A DNA stretch of 58,978 nucleotides from IMG/VR virus record IMGVR_UViG_3300012964_000011, positions 1 to 58,978 of that record; one strand, given 5' to 3'. Below, piece by piece: positions 1-58,978 of the stretch. The position numbers were made by a program, and so were the translations under genes. This DNA comes from a virus. Its lineage: Duplodnaviria > Caudoviricetes. The notes under the pieces are model-generated. The model did not search any database and was not told the origin of the DNA. It saw nothing but the letters and a program-made list of their open reading frames with translations. The first letter of the stretch is position 1, and each line of letters starts with the position of its first letter.

Positions 1-718
<718 letters not shown>

Positions 719-719
<1 letters not shown>

Positions 720-7025: not shown

Positions 7026-7041
7026 CATCTAGTAGATGAGC

Positions 7042-7069
7042 AATCCAGGGGGTAATTACCCCCTGGATT
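7042..7069. repeat. perfect 28-bp palindrome (terminator or binding site)
   Basis: AATCCAGGGGGTAA|TTACCCCCTGGATT; intergenic. Confidence 0.8.
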
Positions 7070-7084
7070 ACTCAAGGGAGAATC

Positions 7085-13729: not shown

Positions 13730-14480
13730 AGAGTCCCTGTCCTTGCTCATATTCGGGGACCCTAAGGTAGGAAAGAGCACGCTTGCGACCACCGTTCCGT
13801 ATCCTGCCCTGATCATTGACTCAGAGGGTAGTTGGAAGTTCATTAGACGCAGAGGATTCAATGGTGATTTGATCCGTAAAGTCACCTGGAATCCAGGGGG
13901 GGAACTTCCTACCAATAATGGTTCCTGGGATATTTGTATCTCCAAGATAACCTCTTGGGGGGAATTTGAAACCGTGTACAACCGGCTGATCACAGGAAAT
14001 CACGAGTTCGCTACCGTAGTAATCGACTCAATATCAGATGTTCAGAGGCGCTGTAAGCGCAATCTGGTGCAAGGAGATAGTAAGGCCGAGTGGGATGATT
14101 GGGGTACGCTCCTGACCACAATGGATAATCGTGTACAGTCCCTGCGTGACCTCCCACTAGTTACCGGATCGCCGACTCGGTGCGTGCTCTTCATCGCCGA
14201 GAAAGATCTAGATGACCGTTCAAAGAAGTACGGTCCGGCTCTAGAAGGGGCATTTCGCAGAATTCTACCGCATATGGTAGACATATCTGGATACCTCGGA
14301 GTCGGTGACTCCACCAAGAAGGATGAACACGGTAAGCCCATTCGTGTTCAGAAACTAGGAATCGGACGATCAAATCTCTACGTAACCGGAGAACGTGTAC
14401 AAGGTGCATTACCAAATACGCTGGAAAATCCAGACATATCTCAAATGATGATTGACATCTATAGGAATGCTAATAACTGA
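13665..14480 (+). CDS. AAA_24 / Sak4-like ATPase (recombination)
   Basis: GDPKVGKS Walker A, IDSEG, VIDSIS; lies between the nuclease and the SSB. Confidence 0.8.
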   Translation: MTNQKSTDQKPANLSNTLFTPEESLSLLIFGDPKVGKSTLATTVPYPALIIDSEGSWKFIRRRGFNGDLIRKVTWNPGGELPTNNGSWDICISKITSWGEFETVYNRLITGNHEFATVVIDSISDVQRRCKRNLVQGDSKAEWDDWGTLLTTMDNRVQSLRDLPLVTGSPTRCVLFIAEKDLDDRSKKYGPALEGAFRRILPHMVDISGYLGVGDSTKKDEHGKPIRVQKLGIGRSNLYVTGERVQGALPNTLENPDISQMMIDIYRNANN

Positions 14481-14998: not shown

Positions 14999-15004
14999 GT
15001 AGTT

Positions 15005-15050
15005 ACACGTCAAAGCCCGTAGAAGACACACTCTACGGGCTTTGACGTGT
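15005..15050 (+). terminator. 19-bp stem hairpin ending the replication operon
   Basis: ACACGTCAAAGCCCGTAGA / TCTACGGGCTTTGACGTGT. Confidence 0.75.
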
Positions 15051-15070
15051 CTGTAACAGCTTGGTACCAT
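15042..15070 (+). promoter_or_regulatory. leaderless promoter whose -35 box lies in the terminator arm
   Basis: TTGACG-N17-TACCAT-N7-ATG(15078). Confidence 0.65.
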
Positions 15071-15077
15071 GTCTACT

Positions 15078-15368
15078 ATGGCTGAAGATCAAACAACCAA
15101 AGTTCGCAATCCTAGAGGCCCATCGCTGCACACTGTGCAGCGGGCAGAGGAGCTGTTAAAGGCTATTACTGAGAATCCAGGTGGGACGGTAGGTGAATAC
15201 GCCAGGATCCTGGGTAGGGATACTAGGTACGTATCCCCTGGACTCACACACCTCGCAAAGAGCGGAAAGATCGTACATGTTCACTTTGATAGCGCTCATA
15301 GATATTACTTGACTGGCAGTTCTCCGTATGATACTGTTACATCAGTACAAGATACAGAGATAAGCTAG
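15078..15368 (+). CDS. winged-helix DNA-binding protein
   Basis: AITENPGGTVGEYARILG...LTHLAKSGKI pattern. Confidence 0.6.
   Translation: MAEDQTTKVRNPRGPSLHTVQRAEELLKAITENPGGTVGEYARILGRDTRYVSPGLTHLAKSGKIVHVHFDSAHRYYLTGSSPYDTVTSVQDTEIS
15309..15337 (+). promoter_or_regulatory. promoter for the structured RNA locus
   Basis: TTGACT-N17-TACTGT about 40 nt upstream of the first tRNA-like element. Confidence 0.55.
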
Positions 15369-15377
15369 TTCGTAGTT

Positions 15378-15453
15378 TGGTCTGTAGGTTAATGGGCAAA
15401 CCACAACAGAACGCGCGTAGATGTTGATAAGGGTTCGAATCCCTTCAGACCAA
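15378..15453 (+). tRNA. tRNA-like element with a 13-nt anticodon loop; no assignable isotype
   Basis: Acceptor TGGTCTG/CAGACCA, D arm GGTT/AACC, T arm AAGGG-TTCGAAT-CCCTT; CAACA/TGTTG stem around GAACGCGCGTAGA; no CCA. Confidence 0.7.
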
Positions 15454-15454
15454 C

Positions 15455-16056
15455 GAAACATGCTGCATTAGTAGCATGTTCATTGACAATTACATAGAAT
15501 CCGGAAACGAACTGCCATTTTAGATGCGAAATGTGCGTTTAGATTTGATCATTCGATCAAATCTAAACTATAGCAGAGTAAGTCTTCCTGGCAGGTGACA
15601 CAAGGATGTGTGGCATCACGGTAAACTGCCGGTTTAGACTGTAGTGTAATAGCAGCACTTCCGACGCAATCGGAAAGAGTAGGTGCGAGTCCTACCAGTC
15701 TAACGTGTCACGAATCCCATTGCGAAAGTTGGGACGCGAGGAAACCAAGCGAAACGTAAACCTGTTGACAACTGCACCGTTGATGTGTTTGACATCACAT
15801 CATCAAACTAGTTGTGGCGAGATACTACAGAGAATTGATCTAGAGCAGTGGCTCTGTTTGAGGGAGCAATACCCTCGTATCTCACGAGAGTGACATGATC
15901 TGGACATTAGATGTCCAGATCCGAAAAGATCAATTCAAAGTACTATAAATCACCTAAAAATCCATCTAAAATGTAAAACCAGCACCGAGATCGAAGTAAG
16001 CCATTAATACCCTGTCCGGAAGCTGCCTCGGAGCGTGACCGGATGGATGAGTTCAT
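15455..16056 (+). ncRNA. candidate large structured non-coding RNA(s)
   Basis: No credible ORF; dense nested helices, including GTGACAC/GTGTCAC enclosing tRNA-like element 2 and GAATTGATCT/AGATCAATTC closing a four-hairpin junction. Confidence 0.55.
15635..15703 (+). tRNA. short tRNA-like element, at best an atypical tRNA-Cys(GCA)
   Basis: Acceptor TAGACTG/CAGTCTA, D arm GTGT/GCAC, T arm GTAGG-TGCGAGT-CCTAC; TTCCGA-CGCAA-TCGGAA arm lacks U33; no CCA. Confidence 0.6.
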
Positions 16057-16099
16057 CTATTATCACTCCTGATTGATGAGCATTCAGGAGTGATAATAG
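16057..16099. terminator. 16-bp stem hairpin at the end of the RNA locus
   Basis: CTATTATCACTCCTGA / TCAGGAGTGATAATAG. Confidence 0.6.
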
Positions 16100-16351
16100 T
16101 GTGTAGACAACTTTAGATCTCAAAATTATAGAGGAGTAATCCATGACAATTTGTGGTGCGTATTGCCCACATGGCGGAGTTTGTCTGCTGGAGAAAGGGC
16201 ACGAAGAGTATCACGACACTGGTTTCTGCAAGTTCAATGACAAAGAAGCCATCGGCAAAGAAGAAGCCGATGCGATGCTAGATCCTGATAGCCTCATGAC
16301 GGAAGTATTCAAACGATTCACCTGATGAGTGATAATAGTATGTAGACAACT
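16088..16351 (+). repeat. 25-bp direct repeat upstream of two consecutive genes (16088-16112, 16327-16351)
   Basis: GAGTGATAATAGT(G/A)TGTAGACAACT; contains a GATAAT -10-like box. Confidence 0.75.
16143..16325 (+). CDS. small Cys/His-rich hypothetical protein
   Basis: GAGGAG RBS; C...C..GGVC.L.KGH...H. Confidence 0.6.
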   Translation: MTICGAYCPHGGVCLLEKGHEEYHDTGFCKFNDKEAIGKEEADAMLDPDSLMTEVFKRFT

Positions 16352-16695: not shown

Positions 16696-17784
16696 TCACT
16701 TGCACGTCTTTAGAGTCTCAGACTTCGAAGTCTGAGACTCTCTTTGTATGTCGTAGGCTCGTGTCCATGCGTCCCACCACCGGGTAGCGTGGTTTTCCAG
16801 TACTAGATGCTCACGAACGATCTCACGCCCTTTAGCGGACATCTCCTGCCGGTACACAGCGTCGTCAGCGAGATGCTTGACTTCCCGGTACCACTCAGCT
16901 GGTTTCTCCGCCAGAATTCCGATACCCAGGGTGTGAATGCGTCGGTACTCGACCCGAGGCGACATCACGCAGGGAACACCGACAGACGCGTACTCCAAAG
17001 GTTTCAACCAACTTTTCGCAGTGTTAAATTCTGACATTGCCAATGGAGCAACACCAACGCCAATTTTAGTGATCATTGATGGCCAGTCTTCAAACGCTGT
17101 GGTTCCTAGACTCCTAGGAAGCTTTGGAAGATCAATAAGTGTATCTAGTCCAGTTAATGATCCAATAGTTACTGTCTCGTACCCTTCACGCATCAAACGT
17201 CCAAGGGATCCACGTAGACGTGTCAAATCTGCACTGTGACAGAAGATGCTGCCTCCGTATCCAATGACAGCTGAGTCCTCGTGTTGGACATCCAGGTAGC
17301 GCCGAGGTACATAGTTGTAGATGACCTCGCCTCGACCATGAGGTGCGTACTTTCGTAGCAGCGCCGGAGTGGACGTCACTACGTACGTGGCATCTTTCAT
17401 TGCTTGCCTGGCATACGATGCCGTATGCGGATTCTTTATCTGCTCAAACCGTTTGCGAAGTCCGTATGACGCAGGGTTGTTAGGATCCACAGTATCTAGA
17501 TCGTCATCTAATTCACAAACGACTGCCGTACCCTGTGCACGGATCAGAGATATTGACTGCATTAGATACCTGTGTGTCGGACGTTGAAACACCATAACGT
17601 CCGCATCTTCTGGATATCTGCATGCAATTACATTATTATCGTATATATCACAATCTATCCTGGATTTCTCTCCTGGATACTCAATATGCACGTCATAGCC
17701 TAGCCGCTGCAATTCCAGCGCAGCCATTATGATCCGGTACTGCCCGCACCCAAACCGGTCAGCTGGATAGACATAGACCCGCAC
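16696..17784 (-). CDS. GT-B fold (GT4-like) glycosyltransferase
   Basis: GCGQYRI, VFQR, ELDDDL, VGVAPL..FN.AKS.LK.LEYASVGVP. Confidence 0.85.
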   Translation of the reverse strand: MRVYVYPADRFGCGQYRIIMAALELQRLGYDVHIEYPGEKSRIDCDIYDNNVIACRYPEDADVMVFQRPTHRYLMQSISLIRAQGTAVVCELDDDLDTVDPNNPASYGLRKRFEQIKNPHTASYARQAMKDATYVVTSTPALLRKYAPHGRGEVIYNYVPRRYLDVQHEDSAVIGYGGSIFCHSADLTRLRGSLGRLMREGYETVTIGSLTGLDTLIDLPKLPRSLGTTAFEDWPSMITKIGVGVAPLAMSEFNTAKSWLKPLEYASVGVPCVMSPRVEYRRIHTLGIGILAEKPAEWYREVKHLADDAVYRQEMSAKGREIVREHLVLENHATRWWDAWTRAYDIQRESQTSKSETLKTCK

Positions 17785-17787
17785 TAC

Positions 17788-18396
17788 TTACCACCTACTA
17801 GGTAGACCACTAGTGTTCTTGTCGTGACACCAATACCACGTTTTCTGGACAAGATGTCCTATTGTACCCATCTTATTACAACGTTCTATGAATCCCCAAT
17901 CTTCATTAGATCGCATACCATCTTCATAAATTCCACCTTCGTCTGGCATGATGAATTCTGCCTCTTTGGCGAGATCTGTCTTTACCAGTGTGGTAACTGT
18001 GGTATGTCTAGGATTCTCCGGGTCCCATGGGTCAAGATAGTGCCCAGGGGGGAATACGGGATCATTTTCGTAAACAATACCTCCTTTCATGATTTTGAAC
18101 CATGAATACACAAAATCGTAATTCCAGTCCAGGGCGAATTTGATCAGGTCTTCCAGATGATTTGGCATGAACATGTCGTCATCGTCAAGAAACGCCACCC
18201 AGGGGGTAGATACGGCGTCTAGTGCACGTTGCCTGGTCTTAGCAGCACCTTCCTTGTACACGTCTGTTGTGATGATGTGCGCGAACGCAGGGTACGTCTG
18301 AGCAGACACACTGTTTACACATCGCATGATCTCTGTTTTTCGCGGTGGAATATGAGGTGTACAGACAGTGATCTCAGCACCACGAATGACGTCCAT
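17788..18396 (-). CDS. GT2 family glycosyltransferase
   Basis: SVSAQT, GAAKTR, WVAFLDDDD, EDW. Confidence 0.85.
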   Translation of the reverse strand: MDVIRGAEITVCTPHIPPRKTEIMRCVNSVSAQTYPAFAHIITTDVYKEGAAKTRQRALDAVSTPWVAFLDDDDMFMPNHLEDLIKFALDWNYDFVYSWFKIMKGGIVYENDPVFPPGHYLDPWDPENPRHTTVTTLVKTDLAKEAEFIMPDEGGIYEDGMRSNEDWGFIERCNKMGTIGHLVQKTWYWCHDKNTSGLPSRW

Positions 18397-18521
18397 TTGG
18401 CCAGACTCCCACGGTAGGGTATTTGTTACTATGAATATTATAGCGTGTGTAGGACGCAAGATCTTTACGTCTAGGTAATACAACTACCAGTAGTTGCGAC
18501 ACTCATATGCGATCGTCTATG

Positions 18522-20535: not shown

Positions 20536-23500
20536 TTAGTAGTTGGTTACCCATACGGTTGTGCCATCCCACACACCAGCAGCTGCTAGTACAACCGGAT
20601 CAGCTTCAACATCAGATACCCACTTACCTAGTTGTCTTGTATCCTGTACCAATTGAACTTTCTGGTTATAGTCAGATCCATTTATTCTATGCTCTACCAG
20701 CATAGAACGCCAATACTGATCTTTGGGAAGACTCAATTGACCGTACTCACCATCAACGATGATACGATCATAGATTTGACGTCTGGAGTCTCCCAATACA
20801 TTTACGTCAAGTTTTGGTTTAGACCAACACACAGCGTCTAGTATGCTCTGTGCTATCTGAGTAGCACTAAGAGCGTCATGGACTCCAGATATGGTTGCAG
20901 GAAGCGCGCGTACACCACGTACAACAATACTGTAAGCGTCCTGTACCTCCACAGTGCTCTGTTCTCCGGCCAGCACTGAGCCATACAACGCTATGGATGG
21001 CCAACCTTTAGTATTGACAAAATACCATTTAGCAAAACCATCAGTAGTTATCGTGACACCAAGTTTATCTGGATACCAAGTATCATCAATAGTAATGACT
21101 ACATGTCCCACAGTGTCGTATGTTCCACTGCCATCAGCGTCAGTGTTTGCTGTGAAGTAGTTAGTAGCGGGTTTGACATCGGCAGTCGCATCGTTTCCAA
21201 CAATTGCACTAATGTCTACATATGTAATTGGATTAGCTACCTGCAACCATACATGTGTACTGGTACTAGGCTCGACTACCAGTAGTGATGTCTCTTTAGA
21301 TGAGTCATTAATTGCTACTTCTTTAGTCTGAAGTGCAGGTATGTTAGTGTACGTCATTGATATTTTATTGAACACCTTTGATATATCATCTGTCAGATCT
21401 ATCTCTCCAACATTACTATTGGATTCCAGTTCCTCTGCTACAAACTGGTTGTGTGGACTGGCTAGGTGTCCTCTCGGATAGAATACGAATCGATCATATT
21501 CGTCTATAAATGTCCAAGCTAGCTCATCTTGAGCATATTCCCCGAGAAGTTCCCAACCAGTTTTTACGGTAGTGTCCGATACACCACGTCTGAAACCATC
21601 TGATCCAATGACACGAGCCGTCGGAGTCCATGTCCTCTGGTCAATCCAGTAGGGGTATGCGGCTAATCCTGCCTCTACACCAGACGTCAGCTGTAGTTCC
21701 GCGATAGGGACTACGGCGCCGTAGTACAACGTAGCCAGATCATCTACTAAAGGAAGACCTGGAGTCGTCATGGCAGTGCCAGGATTATATGTATACAAAT
21801 CTCCATCTATATACATATACAGTGCATTACCTGCAACATCCCATGCAAAACCAACTGCATGCCACTCCCCATCCAGGGGGAGTGTGGGAGTAGAAGTATG
21901 TGAGTATGTTGCGTGTGTTCCGTCATTCAGCATCAAATACAACTGATATGCGGAATCTATACCACACAGAATGCGTGGTGTTGCTGGCATAGCTGGTGCA
22001 CTTTGATACAACTGAAATTCGAATGGATCAAACACATTACGTTCATCACCACGAATGAAGAATTCCAGTCGCCCCACATTGGACGCTTGAGAAAGGAAGT
22101 CATCCCCATCATCCAGGGGAATATCAGTTCCATACCCTTTAGTTATGCCAGTAGCAGTGTCTTTCAAAAGAGTAGCATTGACATATGGTCCTTCACACAT
22201 GTCAACTGGCATTTGAACACCATTAGCGTCCCAGTTCTGTAAACGTACATTCTGCTCATATTTACCGTTAATGTTGGGTCTATTGGTTCTGCCAGACCCG
22301 TGCATGGTCATGTGTAGTCGAGCGCTACTCCTACGTGGAGGTGATGGATAAACACCAAGTTCATGTAGTGTATTCGTAATAACCCATGTGTTATTGCATC
22401 CCTGTAATTCCTCGGCAATGATAGGTCTATCAAATGTCGCACTTAATTTTGTTTTTGTAGTACTTTGTCCTTCTATATTCGCAGAGTATTCTGCCTGTTT
22501 GATCAGGACACTTGCCATTTGTCCATGGAAAATATCTGGCTCTTCAACAATTCCATCATCAGTAACCAGTGGTACAGATATCACCATTGGAGTTATATCA
22601 TTTGGAATCCCATACAAAGGTGAATCTGTGTTGTATGGGTTCAGGAACTCCTGACCACTCATACCACCAGGACCATCAACAACCGGTACCACTGCTTTGG
22701 ACAGTCCAGCACCCCCAGGAGCTGTAGTCACGTTGCTAGGCATTCCATCATCAATAGAGTGCTCTACCGTGATTCCTGTACCTACGTATGGGCTGAAGTC
22801 TTCATATGCTGAAGCACCAGAGTAGCCTACGCTAGCCCAGTCCAGGGAGACGCTGACAGGAGCTCGCACTACCTCCCCCCTGGACATTGCGCGACCGTAC
22901 GTTGTCTCTGCTATCCCCCATCTAAGGGCCATTACTCCGCCCCAGTTGAGGACTGACGTACCACCGGTGTCACGGAAGTAATTGAAGGGTGACCACACTG
23001 GGTAGTCTTCTATGTAGTACCCCCACACAGCACCAGAGTCATTTCCTAGTGTGCTGTCAACTACACCTATTTCAGTGTAGTTGGTCTCATTAATCATAGG
23101 TTGTGCTACAGAAGCAAAGTTATCACGTTTCCAACCTACTGCTACATAGAAGACACCATAATCTGGTATTGTCTGCATGGATAGTCTCGGCACTGCAATG
23201 TTGACGGCACTATCAGACATGATCGTAGATGATGCTAAAATAAGATCATCTATATCATCATATGTATTCTCAAACACACAAACTTGTGCAGTTGACGTAC
23301 TTCCAGCTATGGCGTTATTGAATGTGCAAGTTATCGTCGATCCACTGTCCGCTACTGTGCCTATCTTCCCAAACACAATAGTGTTGTTCATGTCCAACAT
23401 GAGCGTGAATCCGGCAGGGACATTTGGTACACGTGTCCCGATGCCTAGCACTCCATTGTTACGAATACTGGACACACACATGATTAAGTACGGAGTACTG

Positions 23501-26910: not shown

Positions 26911-27533
26911 TCAACGTTTAATGGCGTTCAATGCGTCCCTACTGGTTTCAAACGCCTCATCGTCGTCATACCACCATTCCGGAACTGGAATCCCAGGAAC
27001 CGGCATCACCTCAGATTCGTTGTGGTGTTGCAACCATTTGGCACTCCTTATGAGTGCTTTTATCTTCTTTTGACCAGTTTCATCTGTGTATTTCAATAAG
27101 TAATAGTATACTAAATTCAACAGTCGTAACAGTGGCAAATCCAGGGGGGAGATTCCCTTGCTTACGCACCAACCATCAAATAGTTGTCCGGTTTCAGTTG
27201 TATCGTCACAGAATGCTATGAATCCTGTGACGATTCCATAGGGCGTAAACCATACTCCTCAATCAACCACTGCATAATATTCTGGAGTAAAATTACGTTT
27301 ACTTCCATTTCACGCAATTTCTTGGCATCATCAGGAATCAGCACAATATCAAACCACATATGTAGTTCATCCACAAGTTTATCTAGATCTACCACATCAT
27401 CCAAGTTGCTGCCAGACAACACACCCTGCATTTTAGCAAACTGTTTTATAGCGTTTTGTGGCATAATTGCACGTGCAGTGAACACGTAATCTGCTAGCTT
27501 AAACTGCTTAATATCCGAAGAAAAATCCTTCAT
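26911..27533 (-). CDS. tail assembly chaperone pair: 27216-27533 plus a -1 frameshift extension to 26911
   Basis: First ORF ends YGLRPMESS; the -1 frame is open from about 27260 and reads ...FDGWCVSKGISPLDLPLLRLLNLVY. Confidence 0.75.
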
Positions 27534-27968: not shown

Positions 27969-28514
27969 CTATGTGCATCTACATCCTGTTTGCCAGCTTA
28001 CGATGAATTCTAGCCGACTTCCGCCACAACCACCAGAAGGCCCAACAGGAGTAGACGTACCAATGTAATAGTTTTGTATCAATTGTGGTTGTGCTTCTCG
28101 ATAACCATTCAGAAGACAGCGCACTGTTTCACGTGAAACATGAGCGTCAGACAACATGGTCGATGTAGCTGCTGTCAGTGCAGAATCCAGGGGGGGATTG
28201 CCATTCTCATCCGGAACAGGTACACATCTGATGATCTCCAGTGACATGTTGACTGCCAACAACACTGGATCACAGTTGATAGAGCCTACGTATGGTGAAG
28301 GAAAGTCGTTGCTCGGATACGTAGATCCGATCGACAATACAGCCTGACCGCAGTCATCCTGGCACCAGTCATGTACTACTTCGCCCCATGTTATGTAGTT
28401 ATGTGCTACCGGTCCTCCAGTAGATGTTGCCAGTACGGCCACGACTCCAGCTAGCAATGGGGTCGCAATATCCATTACTGCTGTTTCGTCCATGAAAATA
28501 GCTGGATAAGGCAT
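27969..28514 (-). CDS. tail terminator-like protein
   Basis: Position; DC...L, IIRC, GPSGGCGG. Confidence 0.6.
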   Translation of the reverse strand: MPYPAIFMDETAVMDIATPLLAGVVAVLATSTGGPVAHNYITWGEVVHDWCQDDCGQAVLSIGSTYPSNDFPSPYVGSINCDPVLLAVNMSLEIIRCVPVPDENGNPPLDSALTAATSTMLSDAHVSRETVRCLLNGYREAQPQLIQNYYIGTSTPVGPSGGCGGSRLEFIVSWQTGCRCT

Positions 28515-48032: not shown

Positions 48033-48309
48033 TCTGCATTCAGGAGTATGTGCCAGAGACACGAATTCCCCTCCTGGGTAGTCCGGTGTACCCTTGGACA
48101 CTTCAGTGCCTCAGAAATCCAGGGGGAGAGTAGGATTGAGATATGATCACCAACGGTGAACGGAAGAGATCCTCACACTGCGCAACATCAGCATGTGTGG
48201 AAGTAATTCGTAGTGGTGCGTTCATGTGTGCAACAGATGGAGTTACGAGTATCTATTTCCTCCTGGATCACTGGAGAGAATTTGTGAAATCACTAAAGAA
48301 AGATTCGAT

Positions 48310-56559: not shown

Positions 56560-56778
56560 ATGGTCAAATACAGAAGAGTTAATTGGAATGTGTACGGGTA
56601 TTGTGCCACTTGCAACGCGGATCCAGGGGGGGCATGCAAGAATCTACGCTACACAGATGCTAGATCATCTCACCCGCTGTACAACGATACCCCGCACCGT
56701 GGGCGCACGAGGCTCACGGTAGAGCAACAGGAGTGGGAGTACAGCTATAAGCAGCAGTATGAGGACTACTCCGGCTAG
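56560..56778 (+). CDS. phage Zn-finger protein
   Basis: CATCNA.PG..C...PH.GR. Confidence 0.6.
   Translation: MVKYRRVNWNVYGYCATCNADPGGACKNLRYTDARSSHPLYNDTPHRGRTRLTVEQQEWEYSYKQQYEDYSG

Positions 56779-58896: not shown

Positions 58897-58978
<82 letters not shown>

What the first reader, a model, noticed from the sequence alone, without database searches (positions are those of the whole stretch)
15309..15711. Two tRNA mimics with intact elbow and acceptor stem but broken anticodon arms
Seen: both elements have a perfect 7-bp acceptor stem (U1-A72, extendable to 8 bp), U8-A9, a D arm and a T arm. One has a 13-nt anticodon loop containing the self-complementary ACGCGCGT and only a 2-nt variable linker. 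The other has a 5-nt loop, or a 7-nt loop without U33. Neither encodes CCA, and both continue AACG. All stems are fully paired, which argues against simple decay. A dedicated promoter sits just upstream. Element 2 is nested inside a larger helix (GTGACAC 15595-15601 with GTGTCAC 15705-15711). Inference: non-decoding tRNA mimics, acting as decoys for anticodon nucleases or tRNA-sensing defences, or as RNase P/Z processing signals that release the neighbouring RNAs.
Basis: partly seen in the sequence, partly recalled or inferred. Interest (0 to 1): 0.8.

Follow-up and report, generated by a model that had tools for sequence, protein, structure and literature searches.

The report
Non-decoding tRNA look-alikes in a phage
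An uncultured actinophage-like virus carries two, probably three, genes shaped like tRNAs whose codon-reading arm is malformed, so they most likely serve as cutting signals or tRNA look-alikes rather than as working tRNAs.

Summary
E1 (15378-15453) and E2 (15635-15703) are true tRNA-family genes: Rfam RF00005 gives 48.2 and 47.7 bits (cut-off 29), and ARAGORN calls them Arg-ACG and Cys-GCA. All stems are paired, but neither has a usable anticodon arm. E1 has a 13-nt loop and a 2-nt variable linker. E2 is 2-3 nt short, giving a 5-nt loop, or a 7-nt loop with C33 and no residue 26.

A third, more degenerate element (E3, 15819-15884) lies in the same 774-nt gene-free, hairpin-rich array. The "dedicated promoter" is weak. 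The AACG trailer is normal for tRNA genes of related viruses.

The virus is an orphan, so no orthologue could be tested for covariation. In 80 viral records sharing a Sak4 relative, 12-13 of 56 above-threshold tRNA hits that I could read have intact bodies with aberrant anticodon arms.

Best reading (about 0.4): selected, non-decoding tRNA bodies cut out by RNase P and RNase Z, which punctuate a structured small-RNA transcript. Rivals are trans-acting decoys (0.2) and recently disabled tRNA genes (0.27). Nothing shows expression.

Closest known are phage T5's annotated "tRNA-like stable RNAs" and plant mitochondrial t-elements. This scan has noted similar mimics on other phage DNA.

The parts
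15378..15453 (+). E1: tRNA-shaped gene with a 13-nt 'anticodon' loop (15409-15421), a 2-nt variable linker and A73; no encoded CCA
   Evidence: RF00005 48.2 bits; ARAGORN Arg-acg with a forced 3-of-5 stem; descriptor hit with 5-bp stem, 13-nt loop, variable 2
15635..15703 (+). E2: tRNA-shaped gene whose anticodon region is 2-3 nt short (5-nt loop CGCAA, or 7-nt loop with C33 and no residue 26); D loop AATAGCA, T loop TGCGAGT, A73
   Evidence: RF00005 47.7 bits; ARAGORN Cys-gca; descriptor alternatives; aligns to a Trp-CCA-type phage tRNA in L204 with the same D arm and stem start
15819..15884 (+). E3: probable third, degenerate tRNA-derived element. It has a 7-bp acceptor GAGATAC/GTATCTC, TA at positions 8-9, a 5-bp arm with the 7-nt loop AGCAATA next to the 3' acceptor strand, then A and CG
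   Evidence: Fold z = -3.2. The skeleton 'acceptor 7 + T arm 5 + TA' is expected 2.07 times per window on both strands, about 0.014 in this array. Not found by Rfam at E up to 10
15595..15711 (+). 7-bp outer helix (15595-15601 with 15705-15711) enclosing two 5-bp hairpins and E2
   Evidence: Exact complement read; present in the minimum-energy fold, z = -2.9
15455..15481 (+). Hairpin starting 2 nt after E1's discriminator
   Evidence: Fold
15512..15594 (+). Long irregular hairpin tipped by a perfect 14-bp stem (15537-15550 with 15555-15568)
   Evidence: Fold of 15455-15594, z = -5.6, 0 of 200 shuffles fold as well; self-match
15897..15921 (+). 11-bp hairpin 13 nt after E3
   Evidence: Fold
16057..16098 (+). 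16-bp hairpin before ORF 16143-16325
   Evidence: Fold of 16000-16142, z = -4.3
15069..15368 (+). Upstream ORF (99 aa, winged-helix-like). Its stop codon ends 9 nt before E1
   Evidence: ORF list; weak MarR-type PHROG hit and HVO_A0114 hit below the Pfam cut-off
15309..15337 (+).
   Evidence: Read; 8 of 12 consensus matches, not reported by the scan

Best explanation
E1 and E2 (and probably E3) are tRNA-derived genes that this virus keeps for the tRNA body, not for reading codons. They lie in one 774-nt gene-free stretch, on the same strand as the flanking genes, interleaved with strong hairpins.

Proposed mechanism:
1. The stretch is transcribed, either by read-through from the replication-gene operon or from a weak local promoter.
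2. Each element folds into a tRNA-like L shape.
3. Host RNase P cuts at its 5' end and RNase Z cuts after A73.
4. CCA is added.

These cuts set the 3' end of the upstream mRNA, since E1 starts 9 nt after its stop codon. They also release the intervening hairpin RNAs as discrete molecules. The excised tRNA look-alikes cannot decode.

Shown here: tRNA-family membership, intact stems, non-canonical anticodon arms, the array layout, and recurrence of such bodies in related viruses. Inferred: transcription, cleavage, CCA addition, and that punctuation is the selected role.
For: (1) Both are tRNA homologues: 48.2 and 47.7 bits, E about 1e-8.

(2) All 21 stem pairs of each element are intact, while the anticodon region fails canonical geometry.

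(3) What E1, E2 and the degenerate E3 share is a 7-bp acceptor, TA at positions 8-9, a 5-bp arm with a 7-nt loop stacked on the acceptor, and A73-CG. By established knowledge (recalled), this is the part RNase P and RNase Z recognise.

(4) Layout: E1 begins 9 nt after the stop of ORF 15069-15368. Hairpins follow E1 and E3 within 2-13 nt. The spacers are unusually structured, with z = -5.6 and -4.3.

(5) Recurrence: in 80 viral records sharing a Sak4 relative there were 64 RF00005 hits.
- 60 were held and read, and 56 of those scored above the cut-off.
- 13 of the 56 lack a canonical anticodon arm (12 clear, 1 ambiguous).
- Of the 13, acceptors are 7/7 in 11 and T arms 5/5 in 12, against 7/7 acceptors in 34 of 43 canonical hits.
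- Their anticodon regions range from 4-nt loops to a 49-nt structured insert.
- This pattern is expected if only the upper body is under selection.

(6) Precedent: tRNA-like t-elements direct RNase P/Z cleavage of plant mitochondrial mRNAs (PMC1920247, passages). Phage T5's record annotates 'tRNA-like stable RNA with unknown functions' inside its tRNA cluster.
Against: - There is no expression or end-mapping data. No RNA run holds the stretch.
- There are no orthologues, hence no covariation for E1 or E2 themselves.
- The only sequence homologue of E1 found is L325 (80% over 65 nt). It has 2 mismatches in its acceptor stem, as decay would give.
- In related viruses the aberrant elements sit beside ordinary tRNAs, which already provide RNase P/Z sites (G008, G014, G015). 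There, punctuation alone does not explain them.
- The full D arm and elbow are kept in E1 and E2, which is more than a minimal processing signal needs.
- Detection is biased towards intact bodies.
- E1 and E2 are not demonstrably paralogues: 24 of 38 gap-free positions are identical, a value reached by 21% of tRNA pairs. So their two compensatory acceptor differences prove little.
Confidence: 0.4

Rival explanations
1. Trans-acting decoys or sponges. The excised, CCA-tailed look-alikes bind host factors that act on tRNA, such as anticodon nucleases of the VapC type or toxins that modify the tRNA 3' end. They protect real tRNAs, and lacking an anticodon keeps them off the ribosome.
For: - The whole L-shape core is preserved in E1 and E2.
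- Both 'anticodon' loops contain ACGC. That is the sequence VapC-mt4 requires in an anticodon stem-loop (PMC4705866, passages).
- ACG occurs in 10 of 13 aberrant anticodon regions examined, against 6.0 expected (p about 0.02; post-hoc test with mononucleotide shuffles).
- Phage tRNAs have been proposed to counter tRNA nucleases (PMC10264068, passages).
- 5 of 43 canonical-geometry tRNAs in related viruses carry C33 instead of U33.
Against: - ACGC itself is not enriched: 4 of 13 against 1.7 expected, p = 0.08.
- The anticodon regions of the aberrant elements differ widely in length and sequence, unlike a bait for one nuclease.
- No tRNA-repair or tRNA-related gene is in the window: no RtcB, CCA-enzyme or TROVE match, and none in the Pfam scans of 30 ORFs.
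- The host and its defences are unknown.
- Titrating a catalytic nuclease needs a tight, uncleavable binder, and nothing here shows that.
Confidence: 0.2
2. Recently disabled tRNA genes. These are ordinary phage tRNA genes that suffered indels in the anticodon loop and have not yet decayed or been deleted. They have no present function.
For: - E2 differs from a canonical Trp-CCA-type phage tRNA with the same D arm, U26 and stem start mainly by a loop 2 nt shorter (L204). One deletion would do this.
- E1's homologue L325 has an acceptor with only 5 of 7 pairs and a loop without U33.
- E3 looks like a further-decayed copy.
- The window has no working tRNA at all, as expected if tRNAs are no longer needed.
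Against: - E1 needs at least two indels (loop +6, variable region -3) yet keeps 21 of 21 stem pairs. By the usual excess of substitutions over indels (recalled, inference), neutral decay should have broken stems first.
- In related viruses the aberrant elements are as well paired as working tRNAs: 11 of 13 with 7/7 acceptors against 34 of 43.
- Some of those carry long inserts that are themselves well paired (-27 kcal/mol for the G014 insert).
- Of the 4 hits below the Rfam cut-off, 2 still have perfect acceptor and T arms.
- Phage genomes shed useless DNA quickly (recalled).
Confidence: 0.27
3. Unusual but working tRNAs. E2 reads Cys codons with a C33 loop on a shortened arm, and E1 decodes by some non-standard loop geometry.
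For: - ARAGORN assigns Arg-ACG and Cys-GCA, and both pass the Rfam cut-off.
- C33 loops occur in otherwise canonical tRNAs of related viruses (5 of 43).
- E2's D-loop and T-loop signature occurs in many phage tRNAs with normal anticodon loops (40 of 48 unique elements).
Against: - E1 has no 7-nt loop in any register, and no contiguous excision restores U33.
- E2's arm is one base pair short or its loop is 5 nt.
- E2 has A73, whereas U73 is the main cysteine identity element (recalled).
- A 13-nt loop is outside any decoding tRNA described in the review read (PMC7609411, passages).
Confidence: 0.05

Closest known systems
Phage T5 RNA1 and RNA2, annotated 'tRNA-like stable RNA with unknown functions' (record NC_005859)
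   Same: Phage-encoded tRNA-like RNAs of unknown function lying in a cluster with other small stable RNAs and hairpins. T5 RNA1 matches RF00005 as a 131-nt stretch, i.e. a tRNA body with a large insert (24 bits).
   Different: T5's lie among about 20 working tRNAs, whereas this window has no working tRNA. E1 and E2 are much closer to tRNA (48 bits) and have small loop defects rather than large inserts. I did not test for sequence relationship. T5 infects E. coli, and this virus is distantly actinophage-like.
Plant mitochondrial t-elements
   Same: Non-canonical cloverleaves in transcripts that act as RNase P/RNase Z cleavage signals defining mRNA ends, and are released as small RNAs that get non-encoded 3' nucleotides (PMC1920247, passages).
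   Different: They belong to an organelle, not a virus, and there is no homology. Cleavage at E1-E3 is inferred, not shown.
YrlA-type bacterial and phage Y RNAs (Rfam RF02553)
   Same: These are tRNA mimics with T and D arms and tRNA tertiary contacts. The M. smegmatis form is cut by RNase P and gains CCA (PMC4201824, sections 6 and 8).
   Different: YrlA is circularly permuted: its ends lie at the anticodon side and its acceptor is closed by a loop. It carries a GNCGAA Ro-binding motif and lies next to a Ro60 gene. E1 and E2 have normal tRNA topology, no YrlA hit at E up to 10 and no TROVE gene in the window.
Phage tRNAs with anticodon-loop mutations proposed to evade host tRNA nucleases
   Same: Phage-borne tRNA genes whose differences from host tRNAs concentrate in the anticodon loop, in phages of actinobacterial hosts (PMC10264068, passages).
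   Different: Those are base substitutions in working 7-nt loops of decoding tRNAs. E1 and E2 have loops of the wrong size and cannot replace a depleted tRNA.
Irregular and allo-tRNA-like polycistrons in soil metatranscriptomes
   Same: Arrays of irregular tRNA-like sequences from soil and peat samples that do not work in translation and were tentatively linked to mobile or toxin-antitoxin elements (PMC7609411, passage in section 7).
   Different: Those have 8/4-type acceptor/T geometry and extra loops. E1 and E2 have standard 7/5 geometry with defects confined to the anticodon and variable region.

Membership tests
Canonical decoding tRNA (Rfam RF00005) | Score at or above the family cut-off of 29 bits | tested here: met
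   48.2 and 47.7 bits. E2 was missed by the whole-window gathering search.
Canonical decoding tRNA (Rfam RF00005) | 7-bp acceptor, U8, D arm and T arm with elbow nucleotides | tested here: met
   E1 has G18-G19 and TTCGA. E2 has the A-G / G55 variant, which also occurs in phage tRNAs with normal anticodon loops.
Canonical decoding tRNA (Rfam RF00005) | 5-bp anticodon stem, 7-nt loop with U33 and a purine at 37, residue 26, and a variable region of 4-5 nt | tested here: not met
   Both are classed 'BAD geometry'. E1 has a 13-nt loop and a 2-nt variable region. E2 has a 5-nt loop, or a 7-nt loop with C33, no residue 26 and a 3-nt variable region.
Canonical decoding tRNA (Rfam RF00005) | Aminoacylation and identity elements | not testable with these tools
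   E2 has A73, not the U73 of tRNA-Cys (identity rule recalled). Neither has G3:U70.
YrlA / bacterial Y RNA | Match to RF02553, permuted topology, and a neighbouring Ro60 (TROVE) gene | tested here: not met
   No YrlA hit at E up to 10 in 15000-16200. No TROVE match in the window. Topology is that of a normal tRNA.
tmRNA | tRNA-like domain plus tag reading frame | tested here: not met
   ARAGORN found no tmRNA, and Rfam gave none.
Intron-bearing tRNA | An insert whose removal restores a canonical anticodon loop, or a group I intron | tested here: not met
   No contiguous 6-nt excision from E1's loop gives U33 (read). No intron family scores above chance in the region: the best is one weak group II hit at 13.6 bits against a cut-off of 49. 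E2 is too short, not too long.
GOLLD / ROOL large phage RNAs that can embed tRNAs | Match to the Rfam models | tested here: not met
   No hit at gathering over the window or at E up to 10 over 15000-16200. The association with tRNAs is recalled.
t-element-like RNase P/Z processing signal | Acceptor stem stacked on a T arm, located at transcript ends | tested here: inconclusive
   The structure is present in E1, E2 and E3. Transcript ends could not be examined because no RNA run holds the sequence.
Phage 'tRNA-like stable RNA' (T5 RNA1/RNA2 type) | Stable, processed, non-decoding tRNA-like RNA encoded in a phage small-RNA cluster | tested here: inconclusive
   Location and fold fit. Stability and processing are not testable here.

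The most novel reading that the evidence does not exclude
The 774-nt array is a natural 'tRNA-hairpin' polycistron. Non-decoding tRNA modules recruit host RNase P and RNase Z to carve out a set of phage small hairpin RNAs. This would be the bacterial-virus counterpart of herpesvirus tRNA-miRNA units and of engineered tRNA-guide arrays (both recalled). The released look-alikes would also soak up host toxins that attack tRNA loops or 3' ends. E1's palindromic loop could let two copies kiss (self-duplex -15.3 kcal/mol). The elements would then belong to a widespread, undescribed class making up about a fifth of tRNA-family genes in these actinophage-like viruses.
Probability: 0.15. Interest if true: 0.8.

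Novelty: new member of a known kind. Interest (0 to 1): 0.5.

Why it matters
Phage tRNA genes are usually explained by codon supply or by replacing tRNAs that host defences destroy. Genes that keep a perfect tRNA body but cannot decode fit neither idea.

If these genes are under selection, phages exploit the tRNA shape itself. It could serve as a handle for host RNase P, RNase Z and the CCA-adding enzyme, or as a look-alike for tRNA-binding host factors.

In this one group of uncultured viruses, 12-13 of the 56 above-threshold tRNA hits that I could read are of this kind. They are probably being annotated as ordinary tRNAs (ARAGORN does so here), which distorts codon-usage and host-prediction analyses.

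Tried and rejected
**Relatives by DNA**
- blastn of 15250-16150 against 50,697 phage records found nothing.

**Relatives by protein**
- Sak4 alone found none in IMG/VR.
- The helicase gave 13 loci at 22-26% identity.
- The best non-self Sak4 in 5.8 billion proteins is 45% identical.
- A Sak4 alignment gave 80 loci. ARAGORN found 4 ordinary tRNAs in the 93 loci held (13 + 80) and none was syntenic.
- The downstream DUF7574 protein has no word-sharing relative. It occurs in 1 of 30 related records, so synteny could not be used.

**Exact and degenerate DNA patterns**
- E1's loop found 0 matches in IMG/VR.
- A joint E1/E2 pattern found 0 matches in viral, metagenome and genome collections.
- The E2 elbow pattern was first written with one N too many, so it could not match E2 itself. 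It returned 57 stretches, mostly a Met-CAU-type family with T loop TGCAAGT.
- The corrected pattern gave 83 matches. Of these, 58 have good acceptor and T arms, 48 are unique, and 7 of the 48 lack a 5+7 arm.
- An E1 D-arm/T-arm pattern in metagenomes gave 33 stretches. Nearly all are ordinary tRNAs, plus the one homologue L325. L325's record is not held, so its surroundings could not be searched.

**Sequencing runs**
- No RNA holder is listed.
- No variant letters were seen, so there is no microdiversity to use.

**Other**
- Relatives cannot be drawn for a virus record.
- E1-E2 paralogy is not supported.
- ORF 15705-15893 has no family match.
- The literature searches listed no paper describing non-decoding tRNA look-alikes in actinophages. 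This rests on those three full-text searches only.
Full report
**What the window is.** The window is a whole IMG/VR virus record of 58,978 bases. Its two ends share a 46-nt direct repeat.
- Its capsid protein is about 30-38% identical to those of Microbacterium, Streptomyces, Gordonia and Mycobacterium phages.
- Its replication genes are a family-A polymerase, helicase, exonuclease, Sak4-type recombinase and SSB-like protein. They run rightward up to 14998.
- A 99-aa winged-helix-like ORF follows at 15069-15368.
- Then come 774 bases without a credible gene (15369-16142).
- Two small ORFs follow, and the leftward structural operon starts at 16696.
- The finding lies in the gene-free stretch.

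**The observation.** ARAGORN finds exactly two tRNA genes in the window, both here: Arg-acg at 15378-15454 and Cys-gca at 15635-15704.
- Rfam's tRNA model scores them 48.2 and 47.7 bits against a cut-off of 29, with E about 1e-8 in the local search. Only E1 survived the filters of the whole-window search. They are therefore real tRNA homologues, not chance cloverleaves.
This covers perfect 7-bp acceptors that extend to 8, TA at positions 8-9, fully paired D, 'anticodon' and T stems, A73 followed by CG, and no CCA.
- It also covers E1's 13-nt loop with the palindrome ACGCGCGT and its 2-nt variable linker. E2 has a 5-nt loop, or ARAGORN's alternative of a 7-nt loop with C33, no residue 26 and a 3-nt variable region.
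- I checked every 17-nt register between E1's D and T arms. None gives a 5-bp stem with a 7-nt loop, and ARAGORN has to draw a stem with 3 of 5 pairs.
- Removing any contiguous 6 nt from E1's 13-nt loop never puts a U at position 33.

**Three points need qualifying.**
- The 'dedicated promoter' matches only 8 of 12 consensus positions and was not reported by the scan.
- E2's elbow is a variant, with D loop AATAGCA and T loop TGCGAGT. That signature is common in viral tRNAs with normal anticodon loops: 40 of 48 unique elements retrieved by the motif have a regular arm. It is therefore compatible with a folded tRNA.
- The A73-CG trailer also follows most ordinary tRNAs of related viruses. It is a lineage habit, not a mark of mimicry.

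**More in the array.**
- A third element, E3 (15819-15884), has a 7-bp acceptor and TA at positions 8-9. It has a 5-bp arm with a 7-nt loop abutting the 3' acceptor strand, then A and CG. It lacks a proper D arm and the TTC loop, and Rfam does not see it.
- That skeleton is expected 2.07 times per window on both strands. This gives about 0.014 in this stretch on this strand, so E3 is probably a degenerate third copy.
- Strong hairpins sit between the elements: 15455-15481, 15512-15594 with a perfect 14-bp tip, 15897-15921 and 16057-16098.
- Two of the four spacer pieces folded are far more stable than shuffles, with z = -5.6 and -4.3. The other two are not, with z = -0.6 and -1.6.

**No orthologues.** The virus is an orphan.
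- There was no DNA match among isolate phages.
- The best non-self Sak4 is 45% identical. The DUF7574 neighbour has no retrievable relative.
- Exact and degenerate patterns for E1 and E2 found nothing in viral, metagenome or genome collections.
- Public runs hold only identical copies and none is RNA.
- One sequence homologue of E1 turned up in a metagenome contig (L325, 80% over 65 nt). It has the same D arm, the same variable region and an identical T arm. Its 7-nt loop lacks U33, and its acceptor stem has 2 mismatches. That is a point for decay.
- E2 aligns with a Trp-CCA-type viral tRNA that shares its D arm, U26 and stem start (L204). By homology, E2's loop has simply lost 2 nt.

**The wider pattern.** I searched the whole records of the 80 viruses that share a Sak4 relative with the tRNA model.
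- Of 64 hits I hold 60, and 56 of those are above the Rfam cut-off.
- 43 have canonical geometry and 13 do not (12 clearly; one passes under a looser register).
- The aberrant ones have loops of 4-5 nt, missing stems, or inserts of up to 49 nt that fold into long extra helices.
- Yet 11 of the 13 have 7/7 acceptors and 12 of the 13 have 5/5 T arms, against 34 of 43 canonical hits with 7/7 acceptors.
- They sit in tRNA clusters next to working tRNAs (G008, G014, G015).
- A complete 44-kb virus found through the elbow pattern has as its only tRNA-family hit an element with a 5-nt loop (G082).
- Five of the 43 canonical tRNAs carry C33.
- Detection favours intact bodies. Even so, hits with one or two broken pairs would still pass the cut-off, and they are rare.
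- I read this as selection on the tRNA body independent of decoding. It is class-level evidence, not evidence from orthologues of E1 or E2.

**Mechanism.**
- The three window elements share the acceptor helix stacked on a T-type arm, which by textbook knowledge is the part RNase P and RNase Z need.
- E1 starts 9 nt after the upstream stop codon. Hairpins follow E1 and E3 closely.
- I therefore rank first that these are processing modules. Host enzymes excise them, which defines the ends of the upstream mRNA and of the hairpin RNAs between them, as t-elements do in plant mitochondria (PMC1920247).
- The trans-acting decoy idea stays open. Both loops contain ACGC, the sequence VapC-mt4 needs (PMC4705866). 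But ACGC is not significantly enriched in the class (4 of 13, p = 0.08), and ACG only weakly and post hoc (10 of 13, p = 0.02).
- The pseudogene reading is serious for E2 (one deletion) and for E3. It is harder for E1, which needs at least two indels yet has no broken pair.
- Working-tRNA status is unlikely.

**Known relatives in kind.**
- Phage T5's record annotates two 'tRNA-like stable RNAs with unknown functions' among its tRNAs and other stable RNAs. One matches the tRNA model as a 131-nt stretch at 24 bits.
- YrlA Y RNAs mimic tRNA but are permuted, Ro60-linked and absent here.
- Earlier notes of this scan report similar non-decoding mimics in other phages. One is a mycobacteriophage gap with four such genes plus hairpins. 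Those are unchecked leads and I did not test them.
- My three literature searches listed no description of this class in actinophages.
- Supplementary tables of PMC10264068 were closed and may bear on odd loops.

**Verdict.** These are new members of a poorly understood but already glimpsed kind. Interest is moderate, and the function is untested.

Noticed in passing
window 1-46 and 58933-58978: The two ends of the record are an identical 46-nt stretch made mostly of (GT)n. This suggests a circularly closed or terminally redundant, possibly complete genome, although IMG/VR lists it as linear and CheckV puts it at 73%.
   Followed up: no
window, e.g. 7042-7061, 13883-13910, 21871-21889, 27138-27158, 28184-28204, 48117-48135, 56613-56631: The motif ATCCAGGGGG(G) recurs many times on both strands, once as a perfect 19-nt palindrome pair at 7037-7074. 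It may be a regulatory, packaging or modification site.
   Followed up: no
window 15005-15050 and 16712-16741: A perfect 19-bp hairpin lies right after the SSB-like gene, and a 13-bp hairpin lies at the junction of the convergent operons. Neither has a clear T run after it. They look like terminators of the kind reported for actinobacteria (recalled).
   Followed up: no
window 15537-15568: This is a 32-nt stretch of two perfect 14-nt inverted arms around a 4-nt loop, starting GTTTAGA and ending TCTAAAC. It is the most stable single element of the array and its role is unknown.
   Followed up: partly
related viral records G027:22342, G023:28473, G016:101406, G023:28550, G056:4038: Five of 43 otherwise canonical viral tRNAs have C instead of the near-universal U at position 33. 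This may bear on resistance to anticodon nucleases.
   Followed up: partly
L097 (G008:89744-89945): Between the Lys-CUU and Arg-ACG tRNAs of this 92-kb virus lies a further tRNA-like stretch with D arm GCTC/GAGT and T loop TGCAAGT. Rfam did not report it. A fourth element with an 8-nt loop and T loop TGCGAGT follows at 90157-90227.
   Followed up: partly
L127/L107 (G014:53447-53563), L130 (G012:40472-40565), L129 (G027:11141-11236): Three viruses carry elements with the same acceptor (GGGGTGG) and similar T arms. Their 'anticodon' regions differ completely, at 67, about 45 and 45 nt, and fold into long helices. This looks like an orthologous family with a fast-evolving middle.
   Followed up: partly
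window 42-719 and 1571-2275; also 16696-18483: Two paralogous TOD1/MUCI70-like glycosyltransferase genes share a 98-nt stretch at 72% identity. The window also has an epimerase, a methyltransferase and two further glycosyltransferase-like genes, so the virus carries a sizeable sugar-modification set.
   Followed up: no
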